From the IMG/VR virus record IMGVR_UViG_2851955134_000001: DNA of 51,277 nt; one strand, given 5' to 3'. The DNA is from a virus. Lineage: Duplodnaviria; Heunggongvirae; Uroviricota; Caudoviricetes. The notes under the pieces were generated by a model that ran no database searches, was not told the DNA's origin, and saw nothing but the letters and a program-made list of their open reading frames with translations. Every line of letters starts with the position of its first letter. Position 1 is the first letter of the stretch. The translations under genes were made by a program, and so were the position numbers. Shown here one piece after another: positions 2,459 through 49,391 of the stretch.

Positions 2459-3136
2459 ATGTCCATCATTTTTAATGGACACTATCGTATGAAACACCGG
2501 ACCTGGATCACTGAAGCTTTACGTCTTCACTTTGAAGAACATTTACCCCGGGTTGTGGCCGGGCGTCGCCTGGGTGTACCAAAATCAACAGTTTGCAGTA
2601 TGTTCGTGCGCTTTCGGAGAGCTGGCCTTTCGTGGCCTTTGCCCGCAGGCATGTCGGAGCAGGAACTTGATGCCTGCCTTTACGGACAATTTTCCACGGT
2701 ACCAGTCGTACGTCCTGAAAGCACCGTTATATCCGAAGCCCCCGTGGTAAAAAAACGTCCCCGGCGGCCCAACTTCCCTTATGAGTTTAAAATCGCCTTA
2801 GTGGAACAGTCACTGCAGCCCGGAGCCTGTGTGGCGCAGATCGCCCGGGAAAACGGAATCAACGATAACCTGCTCTTCAACTGGCGCCATCAATACCGGA
2901 AAGGTGGCCTGCTGCCTTCCGGAAAAAATATGCCGGCACTGCTTCCCGTGACGTTAACGCCGGAGCCGGATAATAAAATCCCGGCTCCGGCACAGGAACC
3001 AGAGCAGATAAATACACCGTCCGACAGTCTGTGTTGTGAGCTGGTTCTGCCGGCCGGAACTCTCAGGCTTAAAGGTAAACTGACGCCGGCGTTATTACAG
3101 ACACTTATCCGCGAAATAAAAGGGAGCAGCCACTGA
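2459..3136 (+). CDS. IS66-family accessory protein TnpA (start may be the internal ATG at 2489)
   Basis: First ORF of the IS; stop overlaps the tnpB start (ATGA at 3136). Confidence 0.65.
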   Translation: MSIIFNGHYRMKHRTWITEALRLHFEEHLPRVVAGRRLGVPKSTVCSMFVRFRRAGLSWPLPAGMSEQELDACLYGQFSTVPVVRPESTVISEAPVVKKRPRRPNFPYEFKIALVEQSLQPGACVAQIARENGINDNLLFNWRHQYRKGGLLPSGKNMPALLPVTLTPEPDNKIPAPAQEPEQINTPSDSLCCELVLPAGTLRLKGKLTPALLQTLIREIKGSSH

Positions 3137-3483
3137 TGATATCTCTCCCTGCAGGTTCGCGTATCTGGCTGGTTGCCGGTATCACCGATATGCGAAATGG
3201 CTTTAACGGCCTGGCCTCAAAAGTTCAGAACGTCCTGAAGGATGACCCGTTCTCCGGACACCTGTTCATCTTCCGCGGACGCCGGGGTGACCAGATAAAA
3301 GTGTTGTGGGCTGACAGTGACGGACTGTGCCTCTTCACCAAACGCCTGGAGCGGGGCCGCTTCGTCTGGCCGGTTACCCGTGACGGCAAGGTGCACCTTA
3401 CTCCGGCTCAGTTATCTATGCTTCTTGAAGGTATCAACTGGAAGCACCCGAAACGAACGGAACGCGCTGGCATTCGCATATAA
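3136..3483 (+). CDS. IS66-family TnpB (Orf2)
   Basis: 115 aa with sequence MISLPAGSRIWLVAGITDMRNGFNGL... characteristic of IS66 Orf2, as recalled. Confidence 0.85.
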   Translation: MISLPAGSRIWLVAGITDMRNGFNGLASKVQNVLKDDPFSGHLFIFRGRRGDQIKVLWADSDGLCLFTKRLERGRFVWPVTRDGKVHLTPAQLSMLLEGINWKHPKRTERAGIRI

Positions 3484-3502
3484 CCCGTTGTAAAGTGAGG
3501 AT

Positions 3503-5074
3503 ATGGACACCTCACTTGCTCATGAGAATGCCCGCCTGCGGGCACTGTTGCAGACGCAACAGGACACCATCCGCCAGATGGCGAAATACAACCGCCTGCT
3601 CTCACAGCGGGTGGCGGCTTATGCTTCCGAAATCAACCGGCTGAAGGCGCTGGTTGCGAAACTGCAACGTATGCAGTTCGGTAAAAGCTCAGAAAAACTT
3701 CGTGCAAAAACCGAACGGCAGATACAGGAAGCACAGGAGCGAATCAGCGCACTTCAGGAAGAAATGGCGGAAACGCTGGGTGAGCAATATGACCCGGTAC
3801 TGCCATCCGCCCTGCGCCAGTCTTCAGCCCGTAAACCGTTACCGGCCTCACTTCCCCGTGAAACCCGGGTTATCCGGCCGGAAGAGGAATGCTGTCCTGC
3901 CTGTGGTGGTGAACTCAGTTCTCTGGGATGTGATGTGTCAGAGCAACTGGAGCTTATCAGCAGCGCCTTTAAGGTTATCGAAACACAACGTCCGAAACTG
4001 GCCTGTTGCCGGTGCGACCATATCGTGCAGGCACCGGTGCCTTCAAAACCCATTGCACGCAGTTATGCCGGAGCGGGGCTCCTGGCCCATGTCGTCACCG
4101 GAAAATATGCAGACCATCTGCCGTTATACCGCCAGTCAGAGATATACCGCCGTCAGGGTGTGGAGCTGAGCCGTGCCACACTGGGGCGCTGGACTGGTGC
4201 CGTTGCTGAACTACTGGAGCCGCTGTATGACGTCCTGCGCCAGTATGTGCTGATGCCCGGTAAAGTCCATGCTGATGATATCCCCGTCCCGGTCCAGGAG
4301 CCGGGCAGCGGTAAAACCCGGACAGCCCGGCTGTGGGTCTACGTCCGTGATGACCGTAACGCCGGTTCACAGATGCCCCCGGCGGTCTGGTTCGCGTACA
4401 GTCCGGACCGGAAAGGTATCCATCCACAAAATCACCTGGCCGGTTACAGCGGTGTGCTTCAGGCCGATGCTTACGGTGGTTACCGGGCGTTATACGAATC
4501 CGGCAGAATAACGGAAGCCGCGTGTATGGCTCATGCCCGGAGAAAAATCCACGATGTGCATGCAAGAGCGCCCACCGACATCACCACGGAAGCCCTGCAG
4601 CGTATCGGTGAACTGTATGCCATCGAGGCAGAGGTCCGGGGCTGTTCAGCAGAACAGCGTCTGGCGGCAAGAAAAACCAGAGCCGCGCCACTGATGCAGT
4701 CACTGTATGACTGGATACAGCAACAGATGAAAACACTGTCGCGTCACTCAGATACGGCAAAAGCGTTCGCATACCTGCTGAAACAGTGGGATGCACTGAA
4801 CGTGTACTGCAGTAATGGCTGGGTGGAAATCGACAACAACATCGCAGAGAACGCCTTACGGGGAGTGGCCGTAGGCCGGAAAAACTGGCTCTTCGCGGGT
4901 TCCGACAGCGGTGGCGAACATGCGGCGGTGTTGTACTCGCTGATCGGCACATGCCGTCTGAACAATGTGGAGCCAGAAAAATGGCTGCGTTACGTTATTG
5001 AGCATATTCAGGACTGGCCGGCAAACCGGGTACGCGATCTGTTGCCCTGGAAAGTTGATCTGAGCTCTCAGTAA
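3503..5074 (+). CDS. IS66-family transposase (TnpC)
   Basis: 523 aa; N-terminal leucine-zipper-like region, CxxC zinc motif and C-terminal region typical of IS66 transposases. Confidence 0.9.
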
Positions 5075-31711: not shown

Positions 31712-32764
31712 TTATTTCCCCACCAGCTCGTTTATCTCTTTCACTGTCTGATTAAACCGCTCTGACTCAAGCTCAACACCTAAGGCCCGACGCCCCAGCG
31801 CCATTGCTGCTTTTATTGTGGAACCGGATCCCATAAAAAAATCAGCAACCAGATCACCTGGTCGACTACTGGCATTGATTATTTGCCTGAGCATATCCGC
31901 CGGTTTCTCACACGGATGTTTACCCGTGTAGAACTGAACGGGTTTATGCATCCAGACATCGGTATAAGGCACGGAGACTGATACGGAAAAATAGCGCCGG
32001 AGAGATTTAAACTCATCCAGCAATTCAGAATATTTGCGATTCAGTGAATCATAAGATGCCACCAGCTGGTGGTGTGGTTGTTCCAGTTGTTGTTCCTGAA
32101 ACTTCTCTGCCGCTATACGGGAAAACAGTGCCTGTAACTTCCGATAGTCAGCCTCATTCGGCAACTGCCACTGACTGGCACCAAACCAGTGGGAAACCAT
32201 ATTTTTCTTACCTGTGGCTTCGGCAATTTGTTTTGCCGTTATACCCAGTTCGGCACGAGCATCCCTGAAATACGAAATCAGCGGTGCCATTATGTGCTGT
32301 TTGAGTTCCCTTTCTTTTGCTGCATAGCCGTCACTTTTGCCGCGATATGGCCCCTGGTAATGTTCAGCAAACAGAACGCGCTCTGTGGCAGGAAAATATG
32401 CGCGCAGACTTTCTTTATTGCACCCGTTCCATCGTCCGGACGGCTTCGCCCAGATAATGTGGTTCAGCACATTAAAGCGTTCACGCATCATGATTTCGGT
32501 ATCAGATGCCAGACGATGACCGCAGAACAGGTAAAGGCTTCCGGCAGGTTTTAACACCCGCCAGAACTGCGCCAGACACTGATCCAGCCATTTCAGGTAA
32601 TCATCATCGCCCTTCCACTGGTTATCCCAGCCTTCGTGTTTCACTTTAAAGTATGGCGGGTCTGTGACAATCAGATCGACAGAGTTTTCCGGTAAGGTCT
32701 GGATAAATTCCAGGCAATCAGCGTTGATTAACTCACAACTGGATATTTTTACAGTATTAGCCAT
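31712..32764 (-). CDS. DNA methyltransferase (N6-adenine/N4-cytosine family, DPPY motif)
   Basis: DPPY at residues ~35-38 and a C-terminal FxGxG-type AdoMet motif (DFFMGSGST); 350 aa. Confidence 0.8.
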
Positions 32765-32914
32765 AGATCAATAAGCGCTTCTCTGATAGGCTCATACCGC
32801 TTTTGCGCAAAGCAGATGGGCCTGAGGTTTGCTTGTGACCCCAACGCATGAGCAGATGGCTGGCAGGTGCCGCTAACACCCACCAGCCGCCCATTACCAC
32901 AAATTAAAAAGCCT

Positions 32915-33136
32915 TCACTGCGGAAGGCGTCTGTAACAACCGAACTGATAATCTGCCAGGCCCGCCATAACAAGCTGGGTCAGTATTAACTGGCAGCATT
33001 CGCGTGAAAGGTAAGTATTCTGCGCAATCTCCCCGACGGTCGCCGGTTCGGTGACGCTTAATTCATTAAGCACCACTCTGGCGGTTTCTGTCATATCTTG
33101 CTGTTTTAGCATGTCTTTTTCCCTTCTGGTTAACAT
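32915..33136 (-). CDS. small winged-helix-like protein (start uncertain)
   Basis: 73 aa from the internal ATG at 33136 (the track ORF starts at a TTG); HTH-like TVGEIAQNTYLSRECCQLILTQL. Confidence 0.35.
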   Translation of the reverse strand: MLTRREKDMLKQQDMTETARVVLNELSVTEPATVGEIAQNTYLSRECCQLILTQLVMAGLADYQFGCYRRLPQ

Positions 33137-33233
33137 GACATACCAATAACTCTTGTCTAAAAAGCCAGCAAGCTGAAAGACCTGTATTCGCAACCACCAG
33201 CGCGTTTAACGTCCTGTGCTGTTTTTCGGACAC

Positions 33234-33258
33234 AAAAAAACCCGCACGGCGGCGGGTT
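33234..33258 (-). terminator. intrinsic terminator (tR'-like) downstream of the late promoter
   Basis: Minus-strand hairpin ACCCGC-CGCCGT-GCGGGT followed by seven T residues. Confidence 0.65.
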
Positions 33259-33305
33259 GTAAAAAATCTTTTAACGTCAGGTATAAAACGCCCATCGTTA
33301 GTGCG

Positions 33306-33333
33306 AATTTACCACAGATTCGGGAAAAATCAA
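33306..33333 (-). promoter_or_regulatory. candidate late promoter pR' (-35 TTGATT, 16-bp spacer, -10 TAAATT)
   Basis: Sigma70-like hexamers on the minus strand directly downstream of the Q-like gene and ~50 nt upstream of the terminator. Confidence 0.4.
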
Positions 33334-33338
33334 CAACA

Positions 33339-34160
33339 CTATCGCGTTACCCTCTTCAACTGCCGCTCCGCCCATGACTCTTCAATGTCAAACCGAACCA
33401 CCAGCGTATCGTAAAAACGCTTCACTGATTTTTTCCACGTATCAAGAGTGATAGCGCTCGTCACTTTGCATATGGCATTAAACGCCTCTGTTGACGGTAA
33501 TCTTTCATAGCCACGACCACCACAACGCTGGCAGTCTCTGATAACAGGCATACCACGTTTTACCGACTCTTCACGATGAATGGCGACACCACGCCCACGG
33601 CAATCATTACAGGCGGTGGAGACCTCACCCTTTCCCCCGCATTCAGGACAGGCAACTTTTACCACTTCCCGGACTTTTTTCCATTCTTCCCAGTAAGACG
33701 GATACACACCCTTTGTACACTTTGCCCATACCGGCGGTTTACCATCCGGATACTGGACCTTGTTTGTAAAAACTACGCTTTCAATAAATTTTTTCCCACC
33801 GCAACAAGGGCACTGTTTTTTACTCGCTGCACTACGGGCATAATCCTCAAAAGCGTACGAAGCCATAATGCGCATCACTGTCGGTTTTATTTCTGCCGGA
33901 AGTTTTCTCAACGCCGCCACGCGATCGCACCGACTGAGTGCATAATCTGCCAGTAATTCTGTTGCCCGCGTTCTGTCATTCATACTGATGCCCATTTTCC
34001 CCAGGAACGCAGAAAATCCCATCTCAGCCCGGTTTTGTGTCATACCCTGCGCAGCCATCACATCAGTGATGCTCAGCGCATCTTTTGACGTCGAGACGGA
34101 TGCATCAGTCAGGCCTGGCGATTTTGGGGAATAGTATTTCGGTAAATCTTCCAGTTTCAT
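33339..34160 (-). CDS. putative late antiterminator Q with DnaJ-like CxxCxGxG zinc-finger repeats
   Basis: Positioned between rusA and the pR'/tR' signals; contains CPCCGGKK, CPECGGKG, CNDCRGRG and CQRCGGRG motifs. Confidence 0.5.
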   Translation of the reverse strand: MKLEDLPKYYSPKSPGLTDASVSTSKDALSITDVMAAQGMTQNRAEMGFSAFLGKMGISMNDRTRATELLADYALSRCDRVAALRKLPAEIKPTVMRIMASYAFEDYARSAASKKQCPCCGGKKFIESVVFTNKVQYPDGKPPVWAKCTKGVYPSYWEEWKKVREVVKVACPECGGKGEVSTACNDCRGRGVAIHREESVKRGMPVIRDCQRCGGRGYERLPSTEAFNAICKVTSAITLDTWKKSVKRFYDTLVVRFDIEESWAERQLKRVTR

Positions 34161-34531
34161 TTTTGGACCTCCCCGTCATGCATTATTTCGTAAATCTTCA
34201 CGCCCAGCCGCCCACCAGGAACAGGCTGACCGCGCACAATATTGATTTCATCAAACTGCTCGTCGTCTATGAGAAGTCCGGCATGCGTCAGCGCATCCAG
34301 TGGTGCTTTCAGGATATTGTCCAGGTCACGACGGCGCTTATCCGGTGGCTCTGCAATAATCTTTATCGCCAGCCTTCCGGACAGGTTTAATTTCAGCCGC
34401 TGCTGGCGAACAATAAGTGCCACATCACGGCGATAACACTCACCGGCTTTTGATACAAAATATGTGCTGCCACGACGTCGCCAGTAGGTGTTCACCGTCG
34501 GCGGGTAAGGCAAAACAAACTCTATACGCAT
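34157..34531 (-). CDS. rusA: Holliday junction resolvase RusA
   Basis: 124 aa; RusA-like DKRRRDLDN region; nin-region position. Confidence 0.8.
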   Translation of the reverse strand: MRIEFVLPYPPTVNTYWRRRGSTYFVSKAGECYRRDVALIVRQQRLKLNLSGRLAIKIIAEPPDKRRRDLDNILKAPLDALTHAGLLIDDEQFDEINIVRGQPVPGGRLGVKIYEIMHDGEVQK

Positions 34532-34543
34532 CAGTAACCTCTT

Positions 34544-35590
34544 TTACCCGAGCACGCCGGTTGCAAAGGCGTGATCAAGAAAACGAAAAATTAAATCAAT
34601 CTGGGAACCATGCTTTTCTTCAAATGCCAGCGGATCAGCATGAAGTTCATTGTGATGCTCCCGGCACAGCGGTAGCGTAAAAATATCGTGGGATTTTGTT
34701 CCCATTCCGCCCTGACCATGACCAATCAGGTGATGGGGATCGTCGGCTGGCTTACCACAACACGCACACGGCTGTGTCTTTACCCAGCGCGTATATTTCT
34801 CATTTACCCAACGGCGACGTTTAGGTCGCTTCATGAAAGATTCAGGAGACTCCGGATCAACGGCAATGCTGACCACCGTCTTTTCCTGTGGTGGGTTTTG
34901 CTGGTGGGCGTGAGGCAGCGGCGCAAGATTTTTTGTGCGCTGCTTCAGTATGCTGGTGGCGGTCTGCTCTCCCGGTACGATGTCGCTTTCACGGTATACA
35001 GAGCGGATTTTTTCCGCACGCAACCCCAGCGAACGACGTAATACCGCTTCCGGTAGCGCGTCCGCCACCTGATTGCGGACCGCCCACCAGGATAATTCAG
35101 CCAGAGATAATTCACGCTCCTGCGTACCGCTTATTGCGTGACCGATGACGTCAATCATCCATGCTGACAGGTTTTGATGAGCAAGTTGCTCGAGTGATTC
35201 GGATGTCTGGTCACGCAGCTGGTTGTCGCAGTGCCAGCACAACACCATCGCGCCGGTACCGTAACGATGTATGACGATTTCACTGTGATGATAGTCACCA
35301 TGAGGCCACTGGCAGGATTTGACATGACGCAACAGCCAGTCAGACAGTGCCCCAGCGCCGCCAACAGCACGAATCACCCGATCATCGCTGAAAAATGGCA
35401 GTAATGATTTATCCTCCGCCAGCGGCTGGCGAACGGCAGGGACGACTCCGGATGGCAGGCCGCACATACTTTTCGGTTCCGGCTCCACCAGCACTCGAGG
35501 ATTGTGAAATACCGGCATGGATTCACGACCGGGCTTAAGGACCACCAGCCCGAGTTCCGGTACCAGAACAGGTCGAAGTAATACCCGCAC
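34544..35590 (-). CDS. DUF968-like nin-region protein with C-terminal HNH-like motif
   Basis: GTG start with GGAGGT RBS; C-terminal CACCGKPADDPHHLIGHG...LCREHHNELH. Confidence 0.55.
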   Translation of the reverse strand: MRVLLRPVLVPELGLVVLKPGRESMPVFHNPRVLVEPEPKSMCGLPSGVVPAVRQPLAEDKSLLPFFSDDRVIRAVGGAGALSDWLLRHVKSCQWPHGDYHHSEIVIHRYGTGAMVLCWHCDNQLRDQTSESLEQLAHQNLSAWMIDVIGHAISGTQERELSLAELSWWAVRNQVADALPEAVLRRSLGLRAEKIRSVYRESDIVPGEQTATSILKQRTKNLAPLPHAHQQNPPQEKTVVSIAVDPESPESFMKRPKRRRWVNEKYTRWVKTQPCACCGKPADDPHHLIGHGQGGMGTKSHDIFTLPLCREHHNELHADPLAFEEKHGSQIDLIFRFLDHAFATGVLG

Positions 35591-35591
35591 G

Positions 35592-35864
35592 TTACCTCCA
35601 GATCCGTTGCTGGAATGTGCGAGACGGACGCGGTGGGCGTTCGGAGTAAGGAAGCCTGACGGAGATTATCCAGTGACGATAATCGAGGCTGAGGGCTTTC
35701 TTAATCTCGTATCCGTGTCTGCGGTAACACTGAATCAGCCATTCGGCCTGTTCTTCAGTGCATGGAGGGTGTTGGTACCAGTCGGTTTTAAATACGCGAG
35801 AACGCCGCCCATGCCTGCTGGCACGAACGGCATCAGAATTGTGATTTTTGGTATTGTGCGCCAT
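35592..35864 (-). CDS. hypothetical nin-region protein
   Basis: ATG at 35864 (the track ORF begins at an upstream TTG); 90 aa. Confidence 0.4.
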   Translation of the reverse strand: MAHNTKNHNSDAVRASRHGRRSRVFKTDWYQHPPCTEEQAEWLIQCYRRHGYEIKKALSLDYRHWIISVRLPYSERPPRPSRTFQQRIWR

Positions 35865-36056
35865 TTGTTTTCTCTGCTGGCGCAGCAGGTGCCAGTTGTT
35901 CAGGCTAGCGTGCAGATTGTAAACCAGAATTCCCGGAAAAAACAAAACTCGCTGAGGCTGGTATGTTAATCATCACAGTCATGTTTGATGGGGTTAGCTC
36001 ACATTGGGTGAGGGTTCACGGCGTTTTCACTAATAATTTACCCTCCCCGCTATACA

Positions 36057-36449
36057 CTACTGCCCAGTTCTAACGAAGTTTTTGAAGGAAACAACTGCCT
36101 GATAGAGGTTTGGTTGACAGCCAAACATATTATCGCAAAAAGGCTGGATGAAAATTCTTGAGGATCCATCTTCATTTGGCATTTTACTCACTTGATAAGC
36201 GAGGAGTGGACTATTTGGTGAGGGGTTATAAGTGGAGATTAGCGTGTCTGTCGCCGTTTGAATTTTCCATGCGGAATTATTAGCCAACCAGAATTGCGCG
36301 CGTTTCCAATAAAAGTCACATTGCTTTTCATCTTTACATGTTAGTGGCTTCATTGCTTCTGCTTTCAACGCAGGATCGACCTTTGCTGCACACCCTCCCA
36401 ACATTACTGTTGCAATCATTACACCTGCAACTAAAACAAGTTTCTTCAT
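36057..36449 (-). CDS. lipoprotein of unknown function (moron)
   Basis: Signal peptide with lipobox LGGC; ATG at 36449 with AGGGAG RBS. Confidence 0.6.
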   Translation of the reverse strand: MKKLVLVAGVMIATVMLGGCAAKVDPALKAEAMKPLTCKDEKQCDFYWKRAQFWLANNSAWKIQTATDTLISTYNPSPNSPLLAYQVSKMPNEDGSSRIFIQPFCDNMFGCQPNLYQAVVSFKNFVRTGQ

Positions 36450-36592
36450 CTCCCTGCCCCCATCAGTAAAAGTTCGGTTCTCTGATAACTAGAGTTAATC
36501 AACGGAAAAACGCCGAAGCGGGTTAAGTGTGGGTGCATTGAGGATGCCTGACACATCAGAGGTGGCGAGGGATTTCTCCCCCGCCTGGTCTC

Positions 36593-36748
36593 TTACTCCT
36601 CAGGTTCGTAAGCTGTGAAGACAGCGACCTCCGTCTGGCCGGTTCGGATTCGTACCTCGCAGAGGTCTTTCCTCGTTACCAGTGCCGTCACTATGACGGT
36701 TAAACAGATGACGATCAGGGCGATTAACATCGCCTTTTGCTGCTTCAT
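36593..36748 (-). CDS. hok: Hok/Gef-family type I toxin
   Basis: 51-aa MKQQKAMLIALIVICLTVIVTALVTRKDLCEVRIRTGQTEVAVFTAYEPEE recognised as Hok family. Confidence 0.85.
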   Translation of the reverse strand: MKQQKAMLIALIVICLTVIVTALVTRKDLCEVRIRTGQTEVAVFTAYEPEE

Positions 36749-36984
36749 AGCCTGCTTCTCCTTGCCTTTCGGCGCGTAAGAGGCTAACCTACGTTTGTGA
36801 AGCATAGATTGGGCCTCAGATTAATGTTAAGCGTCTTGCAGGACGCGTAATGTTAACTGGGGCTTTTATCTATCTGCCGTTGGTGTTCATGCCCGAGGCA
36901 GATAGCCTCAAGCACCCGCAGCAATTCTACTTAACTCACGTCACCTCGCCAATATAAAATCAATCAGAAAGGTGCCCCATAAAA

Positions 36985-37650
36985 TCACTCCTTCTCTTCT
37001 TTACCGTAGTGGAGTTGGCCAATTTTTATAAGAGGGCGTCCCTGAGATTTGCGGTGTAGATTGGTATCGCGCAGAGAATACACACAGCCACAATATTCCT
37101 GCTGATAGAATTTTTCGCGCTTGCTGATTTCAATCATACGGGACGAGCCGCCCTGCTTGCGCCAGTTATAATCCCAGTACACCATACCCGGATAATGCGC
37201 AACAGCTCGCCGCCCACACTCGTTAACCTGCTGCATATTTTTCCAGCGTGAAATGCCCAGTGAACTGCTGATCACACTGAAACCATTTTCAGCAGCGTAT
37301 AACGCTGTCCGCTCAAAACGCATGTCAAAACACATGGTACAACGGATCCCCCTCTCAGGCTCCCATTCCATTCCTTTGGCACGTTCAAACCAGTTGTCGG
37401 TGTCGTAATCAGCATCGATAAACGGCACGCCGTGTTGTTCAGCAAAGCGAATATTTTCATCCTTACGAATTAAATACTCTTTCTGAGGATGAATGTTCGG
37501 GTTGTAGAAAAAGATGGTGTAGTCGATTCCCGAGGCCTGAAGCGCCTCCATCACTTCACCGGAACATGGAGCACAGCAAGAGTGCAGTAGTAGTTTGTTT
37601 GCCCCGTTCGGGAGCTCCAATTTAGGCCGTTTGAAATCAGCAATAGTCAT
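36985..37650 (-). CDS. QueH-like (DUF208) putative epoxyqueuosine reductase
   Basis: [11 protein letters not shown] motif near the N-terminus plus downstream RCTMC and EYCGCVYS cysteine motifs, recalled as DUF208/QueH signatures. Confidence 0.6.
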
Positions 37651-46953: not shown

Positions 46954-47157
46954 ATGAGCAGCTTATTTTTAACCGAAGATGAATTGCTAATATTAACGGG
47001 CTGCAAATATGCAAGCCACCAGCGAAAATGGTTAATGGAAAACGGGCTTCCGTTCTATACCAATCGTAGTGGCAAACCGATTGTCAGCCGGGATCTATTT
47101 ACCTGCAATAAAACTTTACCACCACGCGAGGTAGAGCCGAATTTTGGTGCGATCTGA
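46954..47157 (+). CDS. excisionase-like protein
   Basis: 67 aa; stop overlaps the int start (TGATG); immediately upstream of int. Confidence 0.55.
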   Translation: MSSLFLTEDELLILTGCKYASHQRKWLMENGLPFYTNRSGKPIVSRDLFTCNKTLPPREVEPNFGAI

Positions 47158-48182
47158 TGGGAAGACGAAGGAAAAATCCTGAACACGAAAAATTACCTCC
47201 AAATGTATACCCAAATAAATATAGTTATGTATGGAAACCAACATCCAGAGAATCTGTAACACTAACCGCCATCAAGGATGGTTTAGCTGCTTTATGGAAA
47301 AAGTATGAGGAAACTGTAAATAATCGCGATCGTGCAATGACATTCGGTCGCTTGTGGGAAAAATTCCTCGCCAGCGCCTGTTACAGTGACCTTAGTCCAA
47401 GAACACAAAAAGATTATCTGCAACATCAAAAAAAGTTGCTTGCCGTATTCGGTAAGGTACCAGCGGATTCCATAAAACCAGAACACATCCGTCGATACAT
47501 GGACAAAAGAGGGGAACAGAGTAAAACGCAAGCCAACCATGAAAAAAGCAGTATGTCCCGTGTTTACAGTTGGGGGTATGAGCGAGGGTACGTGAAGGCT
47601 AACCCATGTGCAGGTGTAAGTAAATTCAAGGCCAAAAACCGCGAACGATATGTAACCGACAAAGAATACCAGGCAGTATTAAGCGTGGCACCCCTTCCTG
47701 TTTTTATCGCAATGGAAATTGCCTATCTGTGTGCAGCGAGGGTTTCCGATGTGTTATCGCTGAAATGGGAGCAGATTGGAAACGACGGGATCTTTATCCA
47801 GCAAGGGAAAACAGGGAAAAAACAGATAAAAGCATGGAGTCCACGATTACAGGCAGCGGTCGAAAAAGCAAAACAGTTACCAAAATCCGCCTATGTGATC
47901 AGCAATCAATACGGCAACCGATATATGTACAAAGGCTTTAACGAAATGTGGGTAGAAGCAAGAAATCGCGCAGGCAAAGTTTCAGGTATTTTAACCGACT
48001 TCACCTTTCATGATCTGAAGGCGAAAGGAATTTCAGACTATGAAGGAAGCAGCCGGGATAAGCAACTTTTCTCTGGTCACAAAACCGAAGGGCAAGTGCT
48101 AATCTATGACCGGAAGGTTAAAGTTTCACCAACACTTGATGTCCCGTTACCTGAAAATATTCCAAGAAAATATTCCAAGTAA
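47157..48182 (+). CDS. tyrosine integrase (lambda Int-like)
   Basis: N-terminus MGRRRKNPEHEKLPPNVY like lambda Int MGRRRSHERRDLPPNLY; C-terminal ...FHDLKAKG... and LIYDRK Tyr region; adjacent to a tRNA. Confidence 0.85.
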   Translation: MGRRRKNPEHEKLPPNVYPNKYSYVWKPTSRESVTLTAIKDGLAALWKKYEETVNNRDRAMTFGRLWEKFLASACYSDLSPRTQKDYLQHQKKLLAVFGKVPADSIKPEHIRRYMDKRGEQSKTQANHEKSSMSRVYSWGYERGYVKANPCAGVSKFKAKNRERYVTDKEYQAVLSVAPLPVFIAMEIAYLCAARVSDVLSLKWEQIGNDGIFIQQGKTGKKQIKAWSPRLQAAVEKAKQLPKSAYVISNQYGNRYMYKGFNEMWVEARNRAGKVSGILTDFTFHDLKAKGISDYEGSSRDKQLFSGHKTEGQVLIYDRKVKVSPTLDVPLPENIPRKYSK

Positions 48183-48234
48183 TTCCAAGTGTGATTTTTG
48201 TCACTGACTTAATGATGTATAAGTGATTGAATTT

Positions 48235-48324
48235 TGGCGGAGAGAGGGGGATTTGAACCCCCGGTGGAGTTGCCCCCACTCCGGTTTTCGAGACCGGTCC
48301 GTTCAGCCGCTCCGGCATCTCTCC
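48235..48324 (-). tRNA. serU: tRNA-Ser (anticodon CGA)
   Basis: Reverse complement reads GGAGAGATGCCGGAGCGGCTGAACGGACCGGTCTCGAAAACCGG...GGTTCAAATCCCCCTCTCTCCGCCA with long variable arm and CGA anticodon; K-12 serU neighbours mtfA. Confidence 0.9.
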
Positions 48325-49315: not shown

Positions 49316-49391
49316 TCCTCTGTAGTTCAGTCGGTAGAACGGCGGACTGTTAATCCGTATGTCACTGGTTCGAGTCCAGTCAGAGGAGCCA
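49316..49391 (+). tRNA. asnT: tRNA-Asn (anticodon GTT)
   Basis: TCCTCTGTAGTTCAGTCGGTAGAACGGCGGACTGTTAATCCGT...GGTTCGAGTCCAGTCAGAGGAGCCA, 76 nt. Confidence 0.9.

What the first reader, a model, noticed from the sequence alone, without database searches (positions are those of the whole stretch)
33339..34160. Q-position protein with four DnaJ-type CxxCxGxG zinc-finger repeats
The gene sits exactly where the late antiterminator is expected, but its central region resembles the cysteine-rich domain of DnaJ, which I do not associate with lambda Q.
Basis: partly seen in the sequence, partly recalled or inferred. Interest (0 to 1): 0.45.

Follow-up and report, generated by a model that had tools for sequence, protein, structure and literature searches.

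The report
Ordinary lambda-type Q antiterminator, long-arm form
The gene is a normal member of the phage lambda Q family of late-gene antiterminators, whose own zinc site is built from these same "DnaJ-like" cysteine motifs; this common, already annotated subtype simply carries a second pair of them on a 68-residue insertion.

Summary
Window 33339..34160 (minus strand) encodes a 273-aa protein with four CxxC knuckles: three exact CxxCxGxG and one CxxCxGxK. It lies between the nin-region genes (DUF968, RusA) and a late promoter, terminator and lysis cassette.

The interpretation that such motifs are foreign to lambda Q does not hold. The protein matches Pfam PF03589 (the lambda Q family) at 171.7 bits and lambda Q itself at E=7.6e-40 over its whole length. 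Motifs 3 and 4 align, with identical 23-residue spacing, to lambda Q's zinc ligands C118/C121/C144/C147. In lambda those ligands are themselves CRDCHGTG and CGRCKGVG.

Motifs 1 and 2 lie in a 68-aa insertion at the junction of lambda Q's body and arm. AlphaFold2 predicts that insertion as a long beta-hairpin closed by the two knuckles, that is, a second, tandem zinc ribbon.

The long form is widespread and already annotated: YdfT of the E. coli K-12 Qin prophage, phages HK225, ES18, SfV, mEp460 and mEp021, and about half of complete E. coli genomes. Downstream lies a lambda-like late-promoter cassette: -10 TAAATT, pause element AACGATGGG identical to lambda, then an intrinsic terminator.

Only the role of the extra ribbon is unknown. 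Low interest.

The parts
33339..34160 (-). Q gene: 273-aa antiterminator of the lambda Q family (PF03589), long-arm form
   Evidence: Pfam Antiterm E=3.5e-51. PHROG_127 E=1.3e-111. Lambda Q (PDB 7ubm_Q) E=7.6e-40. Foldseek top hit 7ubn_Q at E=2.2e-13. RefSeq WP_072740635.1 is named 'antitermination protein'.
34029..34160 (-). Residues 1-44, homologous to the lambda Q segment that refolds into the 'torus' (nozzle) in the RNA-exit channel
   Evidence: The alignment to lambda Q 1-113 keeps SPKSP, TDVMAA and G39. The role in lambda is taken from PMC9388147. pLDDT is low here, as expected for a segment that is disordered when free.
33618..33821 (-). 68-aa insertion (residues 114-181) relative to lambda Q, at the body/arm junction. 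It carries knuckles 1 and 2 and a long beta-hairpin with a variable tip. Predicted to be a second zinc ribbon.
   Evidence: Searches show the gap in lambda Q. predicts strands 125-136 and 159-170. Searches show the hairpin length varying between homologues while the knuckles are kept. One search shows the module is found only in Q-like proteins. One search gives a net charge of +6.
33789..33812 (-). Knuckle 1, CPCCGGKK (residues 117-124); degenerate last position
   Evidence: The family consensus is CDCCxGxG.
33627..33650 (-). Knuckle 2, CPECGGKG (residues 171-178)
   Evidence: C171 and C174 are invariant.
33507..33617 (-). Lambda-type arm (residues 182-218): a zinc ribbon with knuckle 3 CNDCRGRG (33588..33611) and knuckle 4 CQRCGGRG (33510..33533), equivalent to lambda Q C118/C121/C144/C147
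   Evidence: The C-to-C spacing of 23 residues is the same as in lambda Q. The arm's function in lambda is taken from PMC9388147.
33306..33333 (-). Late promoter pR'-like: -35 TTGATT (33328..33333), 16-nt spacer, -10 TAAATT (33306..33311). The spacer holds the conserved box TTTTCCCGAA (33319..33328), the candidate Q-binding element.
   Evidence: The box is conserved in 7 loci from Escherichia, Klebsiella, Salmonella, Serratia and Pantoea, and differs from lambda at the same place. Binding was not tested. The consensus scanner did not call this site, because it matches 8 of 12 positions and the scanner's threshold is 9.
33291..33299 (-). Sigma-dependent pause element AACGAT + GGG, 6 nt downstream of the -10, in the same position and with the same sequence as lambda pR' +1..+9
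   Evidence: It is identical in 6 of 7 long-Q loci and in lambda.
33232..33258 (-). Intrinsic terminator (tR'-like): 7-bp GC-rich stem followed by T7. Predicted terminated transcript of about 67 nt.
   Evidence: Terminators at the equivalent place were read by eye in the downstream sequences and alignment of five related loci (L003, L007, L008, L009, L010); no terminator scan was run on them, and none was evident in L005.
34157..35590 (-). Upstream nin-region genes: RusA resolvase (34157..34531) and a DUF968 protein (34544..35590). The rusA stop overlaps the Q start.
31429..33112 (-). First genes of the Q-dependent late transcript: 65-aa ORF (32915..33112), second terminator (32911..32928), N6/N4 DNA methyltransferase (31712..32764), class II holin (31429..31644/31707)

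Best explanation
The gene encodes the late-gene antiterminator Q of an E. coli lambdoid prophage. It is a member of the lambda Q family (PF03589).

By homology with lambda Q, the four-helix body with its helix-turn-helix, together with the zinc-ribbon arm (knuckles 3 and 4), would bind a Q-binding element in the spacer of the adjacent late promoter. That happens while RNA polymerase is held at the sigma-dependent pause AACGAT just downstream. The N-terminal ~44 residues would then fold into a nozzle at the RNA-exit channel. This blocks terminator hairpins, so transcription reads through the terminator at 33232..33258 into the methyltransferase and lysis genes.

Compared with lambda Q, the protein has a 68-residue insertion at the hinge between body and arm. 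Knuckles 1 and 2 close the base of a long beta-hairpin, making a second zinc ribbon in tandem with the lambda-type one. The two sites are therefore not nested as in DnaJ.

Shown here: family membership, the homology of knuckles 3 and 4 to lambda's zinc ligands, the insertion and its conservation, and the conserved promoter, pause element and terminator.

Inferred: zinc binding by knuckles 1 and 2, DNA binding at the TTTTCCCGAA box, and antitermination activity. The role of the extra ribbon is unknown. My best guess is a positively charged brace along the DNA, or an added contact at the arm hinge.
For: - Pfam Antiterm scores 171.7 bits against a cut-off of 26.7, and no J-domain or DnaJ_C is found. 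PHROG_127 'anti-termination protein Q-like' matches at E=1.3e-111 over residues 1-273.
- Lambda Q structures are the only significant PDB sequence hits. Query 1-113 aligns to lambda 1-113 and query 182-273 to lambda 116-207. Overall identity is 40%, with one gap block.
- Foldseek places the AF2 model (pLDDT 81.5) on lambda Q chains 7ubn/7ubm/7ubj/4mo1 at E=2e-13 to 2e-6.
- Knuckle 3 (xACNDCxGRGKAV) resembles lambda's ARCRDCHGTGRAV far more than knuckle 1 does, and the spacing to knuckle 4 is identical at 23 residues.
- AF2 puts 12-residue strands 125-136 and 159-170 directly between knuckles 1 and 2, both in the full-length and in the arm-only model.
- Homologues form a graded series of hairpin lengths with both knuckles retained: mEp021 with a 31-aa insert, K-12 YdfT, ES18 gp73, and the window with 68 aa. 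The knuckle 3-to-4 spacing stays constant throughout.
- The cassette downstream is conserved across genera: a -35, the TTTTCC(C/G)GAA box, a -10 of TAAATT or TAATTT, AACGATGGG, then a terminator.
- The same gene order, nin genes then Q then holin and lysozyme, is seen in Klebsiella, Salmonella, Serratia, Pantoea and E. coli loci.
- The lambda Q mechanism is taken from PMC9388147.
Against:
- The promoter is weak by consensus (4 of 6 plus 4 of 6) and the generic scanner did not call it.
- The last Gly of knuckle 1 is replaced by Lys in this copy.
- The prophage carries an IS5-like transposase in its late region and an IS66 element nearby. The element may therefore be defective, so Q may no longer serve a lytic cycle.
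- I could not read the AF2 coordinates, so Cys-Cys distances were not measured. The tandem zinc topology rests on homology and predicted secondary structure.
- The arm-only model has only moderate confidence (pLDDT 72, pTM 0.38).
Confidence: 0.9

Rival explanations
1. The protein is a Q antiterminator, but its four knuckles form a DnaJ-type nested cysteine-rich domain. Zinc 1 would be held by knuckles 1+4 and zinc 2 by knuckles 2+3. Under this reading the insertion would really be residues ~125-191, carrying knuckles 2 and 3.
For: - Because knuckles 1 and 3 are both CxxCxG motifs, sequence alone leaves the boundaries of the insertion ambiguous. Lambda's first knuckle starts at residue 118 and this protein's knuckle 1 at 117.
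- Pfam DnaJ_CXXCXGXG aligns residues 171-218 to profile positions 1-52.
Against: - Around the cysteines, lambda's first knuckle matches knuckle 3 and not knuckle 1. The following 23-residue segment is collinear with the segment after knuckle 3.
- AF2 predicts one long hairpin directly bracketed by knuckles 1 and 2.
- The distance from knuckle 1 to knuckle 2 varies from about 20 to 54 residues among homologues, while the distance from 3 to 4 is fixed. This does not fit paired antiparallel segments in a nested fold.
Confidence: 0.1
2. The protein is a DnaJ-like zinc-finger chaperone, co-chaperone or redox protein that merely occupies the Q position. Late-gene control would then be exerted by something else.
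For: - The CxxCxGxG motifs give weak hits to NCBIfam DnaJ_bact (E=1.5e-5) and to anti-TRAP RtpA.
- Some databases name homologues 'chaperone protein DnaJ' or 'molecular chaperone'.
Against: - There is no J-domain, no HPD motif, no G/F region and no DnaJ C-terminal domain.
- DnaJ_bact scores 24.6 bits against a cut-off of 377.
- The protein is homologous to lambda Q over its full length, including the N-terminal nozzle segment and the HTH body.
- A canonical Q-dependent cassette lies immediately downstream.
- No other Q-family gene showed up among the ORFs listed for window 31000-37000 or in the homologous TUM1886 annotation. Other window ORFs were not screened against the Q21 or Q82 families.
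Confidence: 0.02
3. The gene is an intact-looking but functionally idle relic of a defective prophage. Either the Q protein is no longer needed, or it only drives expression of the downstream accessory genes (methyltransferase, small ORF).
For: - An IS5-like transposase lies inside the late region (26464..27444) and an IS66 element at 2459..5074.
- The K-12 homologue YdfT sits in the cryptic prophage Qin.
- Knuckle 1 departs from the family consensus at its last Gly.
Against: - The ORF is complete and translationally coupled to rusA. All eight zinc cysteines and the conserved body residues are kept.
- The promoter, pause element and terminator are intact.
- Proteins 92-96% identical are found in sequenced phages Evi and vB_EcoS-640R1.
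- This rival concerns present use, not identity.
Confidence: 0.15

Closest known systems
Bacteriophage lambda Q (Q-lambda; Pfam PF03589; PDB 4MO1, 7UBJ-7UBN)
   Same: 40% identity over the whole lambda Q sequence. Same N-terminal nozzle-forming segment, same four-helix HTH body, and same zinc ribbon arm with CxxCxGxG knuckles at identical spacing. Same genomic position. Same -10 (TAAATT) and an identical pause element AACGATGGG.
   Different: A 68-aa insertion between lambda residues 113 and 116 carries two more knuckles and a long beta-hairpin. The promoter-spacer sequence, which is the candidate Q-binding element, is different (TTTTCCCGAATCTGTGG against TATTGAATAAAATTGGG). The terminated transcript is much shorter, about 67 nt; lambda's is 194 nt by my own recollection, not a tool result.
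YdfT (QuuQ) of the E. coli K-12 cryptic prophage Qin, and the long-form Q proteins of phages HK225, mEp237, ES18 gp73, SfV, mEp460, mEp021, Evi and Stx2c phages
   Same: For YdfT, ES18 gp73 and mEp021 Q, alignment shows the same architecture: a lambda Q scaffold plus an inserted knuckle pair, giving four CxxC motifs. They are annotated as (putative) antitermination protein Q or late gene regulator Q and occupy the same position next to DUF968/RusA/NinG. For the other phages only tblastn matches of long-form length and their annotation were seen. Identity to the window protein is 96% for Evi, 61% for HK225, 43% for YdfT and 35% for mEp021.
   Different: The inserted hairpin differs in length (31 to about 70 aa) and its tip differs in sequence. 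K-12 Qin has a different promoter spacer. I found no experimental study of any long-form member in the searchable literature.
DnaJ cysteine-rich domain (Pfam PF00684; PDB 1EXK) and the stand-alone relatives anti-TRAP and BSD2
   Different: Scores are below the family thresholds (29.6 against 32.7 bits; Z no higher than 4.2). There is no J-domain or DnaJ C-terminal domain. The spacing is different. The inferred pairing of knuckles is tandem (1+2, 3+4) rather than nested (1+4, 2+3). The rest of the protein is lambda Q.
Q21 (PF06530) and Q82 (PF06323) antiterminator families
   Same: The same biological role and gene position, and the same nozzle mechanism where known (PMC9388147).
   Different: Neither family appeared in the Pfam scan at E up to 0.1, and no Q21 or Q82 structure appeared among the PDB sequence or fold hits.

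Membership tests
Lambda Q family of antiterminators (Pfam PF03589) | Significant match to the family profile above the curated cut-off | tested here: met
   171.7 bits against a 26.7-bit cut-off, E=3.5e-51. PHROG_127 E=1.3e-111.
Lambda Q family of antiterminators (Pfam PF03589) | Collinear homology to lambda Q across the N-terminal nozzle segment, the four-helix HTH body and the C-terminus | tested here: met
   phmmer against 7ubm_Q gives E=7.6e-40, with residues 1-113 and 182-273 aligned to lambda 1-113 and 116-207. Foldseek against 7ubn_Q gives E=2.2e-13 and TM 0.71 normalised on the target.
Lambda Q family of antiterminators (Pfam PF03589) | Four-cysteine zinc ribbon 'arm' equivalent to lambda C118/C121/C144/C147 | tested here: met
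   C184/C187/C210/C213 align with identical spacing and are invariant in 65 homologues. Zinc binding itself was not measured.
Lambda Q family of antiterminators (Pfam PF03589) | Gene placed after the nin region and directly before a cassette of promoter, sigma-dependent pause element, terminator and late genes | tested here: met
   DUF968 and RusA lie upstream. Downstream are TTGATT-16-TAAATT, AACGATGGG and a terminator at 33232..33258, then a methyltransferase and a holin. In the homologous TUM1886 locus the annotation continues with lysozyme and lysis protein; I did not test the window's own lysozyme-like and Rz-like ORFs.
Lambda Q family of antiterminators (Pfam PF03589) | Sequence-specific binding to a Q-binding element in the promoter, and terminator read-through activity | not testable with these tools
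   Only a conserved candidate box, TTTTCC(C/G)GAA, in the promoter spacer of 7 loci.
DnaJ / Hsp40 (type I) | N-terminal J-domain with an HPD motif | tested here: not met
   No PF00226 hit at E up to 0.1. No HPD tripeptide in the sequence.
DnaJ / Hsp40 (type I) | Cysteine-rich domain matching PF00684 above the curated cut-off | tested here: not met
   29.6 bits against a 32.7-bit cut-off, covering residues 171-218 only. TIGR02349 DnaJ_bact scores 24.6 bits against 377.
DnaJ / Hsp40 (type I) | C-terminal substrate-binding domains (DnaJ_C) | tested here: not met
   No hit. The C-terminal 90 residues are the lambda Q body.
DnaJ / Hsp40 (type I) | Nested zinc topology (knuckles 1+4 and 2+3) | tested here: inconclusive
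   Homology to lambda's zinc site, the predicted hairpin between knuckles 1 and 2, and the variable 1-to-2 spacing all favour a tandem arrangement. Model coordinates could not be inspected.

The most novel reading that the evidence does not exclude
The inserted second zinc ribbon is positively charged, sits at the hinge where lambda Q's arm swings about 75 degrees onto DNA, and has a hypervariable hairpin tip. It may be more than a passive decoration. It could give long-form Q proteins an extra contact, for example with DNA between the two half-sites of the Q-binding element, with repositioned sigma region 4, with the beta flap, or with NusA. That would change how Q loads onto the paused polymerase, for instance through a pre-extended arm or a different dependence on NusA. 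No long-form member has a solved structure or a published functional dissection that I could find.
Probability: 0.25. Interest if true: 0.4.

Novelty: already known. Interest (0 to 1): 0.15.

Why it matters
It matters little for discovery. The gene is a correctly annotated member of a textbook family, and its 'odd' motifs are that family's normal zinc ligands.

Two modest points remain. First, the CxxCxGxG knuckles cause occasional mis-annotation of long-form Q proteins as DnaJ or 'molecular chaperone', which this analysis explains. Second, the long-arm form is very common in E. coli prophages and also occurs in Stx2c-converting phages, yet the only structural knowledge comes from the short lambda protein. 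A structure or a deletion analysis of the second zinc ribbon would fill a small but real gap in the Q-loading mechanism.

Tried and rejected
- **Insertion as a duplication of the lambda-type arm.** BLASTP of insert against arm gives only knuckle-level matches (E=0.008-0.065). hhalign of the two sub-alignments aligns 10-14 columns at 13% probability. A duplication is not supported beyond the motif.
- **Insertion as a mobile domain found elsewhere.** A search of 1.84 billion representative proteins with the insert alone gave 18 hits. The full-length ones I read (P0125, P0133, P0136) are Q-family proteins, most of the rest are short Q-like fragments, and one (P0138) is an unrelated repeat protein.
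- **Generic promoter scan.** It found nothing in 32700..34300. The promoter was identified instead by alignment to lambda pR' and to six related loci.
- **Rfam on the short pR'-tR' transcript.** No family was matched; the best hits had E about 0.3 and are chance. The fold is no more stable than shuffled sequence, z = -0.19.
- **Hairpin-tip type against promoter box.** Loci with different hairpin-tip types share the same TTTTCCCGAA box, so the tip does not appear to set DNA specificity. This rests on only 7 loci.
- **Literature.** Searches for QuuQ/YdfT and for Q together with DnaJ or zinc ribbon gave no functional work on long-form Q. Guo & Roberts 2004 (PMC415771) and Vorobiev 2014 (PMC3951671) are not held. 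The lambda Q-binding-element sequence could not be retrieved from the text of the structure papers.
- **Structure libraries.** The afdb50 library was unavailable. BFVD gave only weak hits to small cysteine-rich proteins.
- **Zinc geometry.** Coordinates of the AF2 models cannot be read with these tools, so zinc-site geometry was not measured.

Full report
**Observation**

Its ATG overlaps the stop codon of the upstream rusA gene (ATGA) and follows a GGAGG.

It contains four CxxC knuckles: CPCCGGKK at residue 117, CPECGGKG at 171, CNDCRGRG at 184 and CQRCGGRG at 210. Three are strict CxxCxGxG. The first lacks only the final Gly, and in the family consensus it is a strict CDCCxGxG.

This is far beyond chance. 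About 0.54 strict motifs are expected in the entire six-frame translation of the window. Three are seen, all in this ORF, and none of 100,000 shuffles of the protein reaches three.

**What it is**

- Pfam gives PF03589 'Antitermination protein Q' at 171.7 bits (cut-off 26.7, E=3.5e-51). The DnaJ cysteine-rich model PF00684 reaches only 29.6 bits, below its 32.7-bit cut-off. No J-domain or DnaJ C-terminal domain is found.
- PHROGs gives 'anti-termination protein Q-like' at E=1.3e-111 over the full length.
- NCBIfam gives only far sub-threshold DnaJ and anti-TRAP hits.
- Against the PDB, the only significant sequence hits are lambda Q structures (7ubm_Q at E=7.6e-40). Residues 1-113 align to lambda Q 1-113 and residues 182-273 to lambda Q 116-207. 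A pairwise alignment gives 40% identity with a single gap block.
- An AlphaFold2 model (65-sequence alignment, mean pLDDT 81.5) is matched by Foldseek to lambda Q chains 7ubn, 7ubm, 7ubj, 7ubl, 7ubk and 4mo1 at E=2e-13 to 2e-6. The next hit, DnaJA2, has E=0.67.

PF03589 is the lambda Q family as defined in the structural literature (PMC9388147, PMC7171158).

**The motifs are the family's normal zinc site**

Lambda Q's own sequence carries CRDCHGTG and CGRCKGVG. These are its zinc ligands in the 'arm', described as a type I shuffled zinc ribbon spanning residues 114-152 (PMC9388147).

Knuckles 3 and 4 of the window protein align to them. The spacing is the same, 23 residues between the second Cys of one knuckle and the first Cys of the next. 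The flanking residues are similar: family consensus xACNDCxGRGKAV against lambda ARCRDCHGTGRAV.

**What is different from lambda Q**

Residues 114-181 are an insertion located exactly at the junction of lambda Q's body (ending at residue 113) and arm (starting at 114). The insertion carries knuckles 1 and 2.

Both AlphaFold2 models, full-length and arm-only, predict two 12-residue strands (125-136 and 159-170). Knuckle 1 directly precedes them and knuckle 2 directly follows them. That is a beta-hairpin closed at its base by two knuckles, in other words a second zinc ribbon.

Homologues form a graded series in which both knuckles are retained while the hairpin varies from about 20 to 54 residues between them. 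The series runs from mEp021 Q through K-12 YdfT and ES18 gp73 to this protein. The spacing between knuckles 3 and 4 never changes.

Together with the homology of knuckles 3 and 4 to lambda's single zinc site, this argues for two tandem ribbons (1+2 and 3+4). It argues against the nested DnaJ arrangement (1+4 and 2+3). This is an inference, because model coordinates could not be inspected.

The insert carries a net charge of +6. Searched alone against 1.84 billion representative proteins, it gave 18 hits. The full-length ones I read are Q-family proteins, most of the rest are short Q-like fragments, and one is an unrelated repeat protein. Evidence that it arose by duplication of the lambda-type arm does not go beyond the knuckle motif.

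**Context and mechanism**

Upstream are a DUF968 protein and RusA.

Downstream, read on the minus strand, the sequence aligns with lambda pR'. The elements are:

| Element | Sequence | Window coordinates |
|---|---|---|
| -35 | TTGATT | 33328..33333 |
| spacer | 16 nt | between -35 and -10 |
| -10 | TAAATT | 33306..33311 |
| pause element | AACGAT + GGG | 33291..33299 |
| intrinsic terminator | stem + T7 | 33232..33258 |

The pause element starts six bases after the -10. It has the same sequence and position as lambda's sigma-dependent pause element at +1..+9.

The same cassette follows long-form Q genes in Klebsiella, Salmonella, Serratia, Pantoea and other E. coli loci. In all of them the promoter spacer holds a conserved box, TTTTCC(C/G)GAA, at the place where lambda has a different sequence. 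By my knowledge of lambda, this spacer is where the Q-binding element lies.

Beyond the terminator come a 65-aa ORF, a second terminator, a DNA methyltransferase and a holin. In the homologous TUM1886 locus the annotation continues with lysozyme and lysis protein. I did not test the window's own lysozyme-like and Rz-like ORFs.

By homology with lambda Q (PMC9388147), the expected sequence of events is as follows. The body and arm bind the promoter element while polymerase is paused. The arm tip contacts repositioned sigma region 4. The N-terminal ~44 residues, well conserved here including G39, fold into a nozzle in the RNA-exit channel that prevents terminator hairpins. None of this was tested here.

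**How known it is**

The 1.6-kb region is 100% identical to E. coli TUM1886, where the gene is annotated 'antitermination protein' (WP_072740635.1). Of 5426 complete E. coli genomes, 3678 have a match to the region, and 2473 have one covering at least 80% of it.

The top 120 database homologues include partial fragments. The full-length ones are mostly 260-277 aa, come from across the Enterobacteriaceae, are mostly named antitermination protein, and already carry precomputed PF03589 and PF00684 hits.

E. coli K-12 itself carries a long form, YdfT in the cryptic prophage Qin. It is 250 aa, 43% identical, and has four knuckles.

Sequenced phages give matches of long-form length (250-276 aa): Evi (96%), HK225, mEp237, ES18, SfV, mEp460, mEp021 (238 aa) and Stx2c phages. 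Lambda, P22 and HK97 have the 207-aa short form. The knuckle pattern itself was checked by alignment only for ES18 gp73 and mEp021 Q.

A few records name the long form 'chaperone protein DnaJ' or 'molecular chaperone'.

I found no experimental work on the inserted ribbon in the searchable literature.

**Verdict**

The feature is already known and annotated. The only open point is the function of the second zinc ribbon in the long-arm subfamily. Interest 0.15.

Noticed in passing
window 26464..27444 (-) and 2459..5074 (+): An IS5-like DDE transposase lies inside the prophage late region, between the lysis genes and the head genes. A complete IS66-family element (HTH ORF, TnpB_IS66, DDE_Tnp_IS66) lies near the tail end. 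The prophage may therefore be defective.
   Followed up: partly
window 36985..37650 (-): A QueH homologue (epoxyqueuosine reductase, PF02677, E=1e-65) is encoded inside the prophage, upstream of the nin region and next to a hokD-type toxin gene (36593..36805). It is annotated the same way in strain TUM1886.
   Followed up: no
window 31712..33112 (-): Between the late terminator and the holin lie a 65-aa ORF with weak winged-helix-like hits, a second intrinsic terminator (32911..32928) and an N6/N4 DNA methyltransferase. A similar order (64-aa ORF with no Pfam hit, N6/N4 methyltransferase, holin) follows the long-form Q gene in a Pantoea locus (L008), which suggests a conserved set of accessory genes in the Q-dependent transcript. 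The two small ORFs were not compared.
   Followed up: partly
L005:3335-3376, L009:3284-3325, L007:3323-3364, L010:3323-3364: In several related loci a repeat of AAATAGCT / (G)AGCTATTTAC lies just upstream of, and overlapping, the -35 of the Q-dependent promoter. It is inverted in the Salmonella and E. coli loci and direct in the Serratia locus. It is absent from the window. It could be an extra operator or a terminator for transcription coming out of Q.
   Followed up: no
window 33230..33299 (-): If the late promoter is constitutive, as described for Stx phages (PMC7547250), lysogens should make a terminated RNA of about 67 nt with two hairpins. It matches no Rfam family, and its fold is no more stable than shuffled sequence. 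A segment GTATAC..GACGTT after the pause element is shared with K-12 Qin.
   Followed up: partly
window 47157..48324: A tyrosine integrase (47157..48182, +) lies next to tRNA-Ser(cga) (48235..48324, -), with tRNA-Asn at 49316..49391. This is the probable attachment end of the prophage.
   Followed up: no
P0043 (Serratia quinivorans); H49 (Klebsiella phage ST13-OXA48phi12.4): Long-form Q proteins are named 'chaperone protein DnaJ' or 'molecular chaperone' in public records. This mis-annotation is caused by the CxxCxGxG knuckles.
   Followed up: yes
P0022 (alignment): One database homologue shows systematic A-to-V, S-to-F/L, P-to-L/S/F, T-to-I/M and R-to-C/W replacements along its whole length. 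This is the pattern expected from C-to-T changes in the DNA, as after deamination or bisulfite-type treatment, and is probably a sequencing artefact. I left it out of the alignment used for structure prediction.
   Followed up: no
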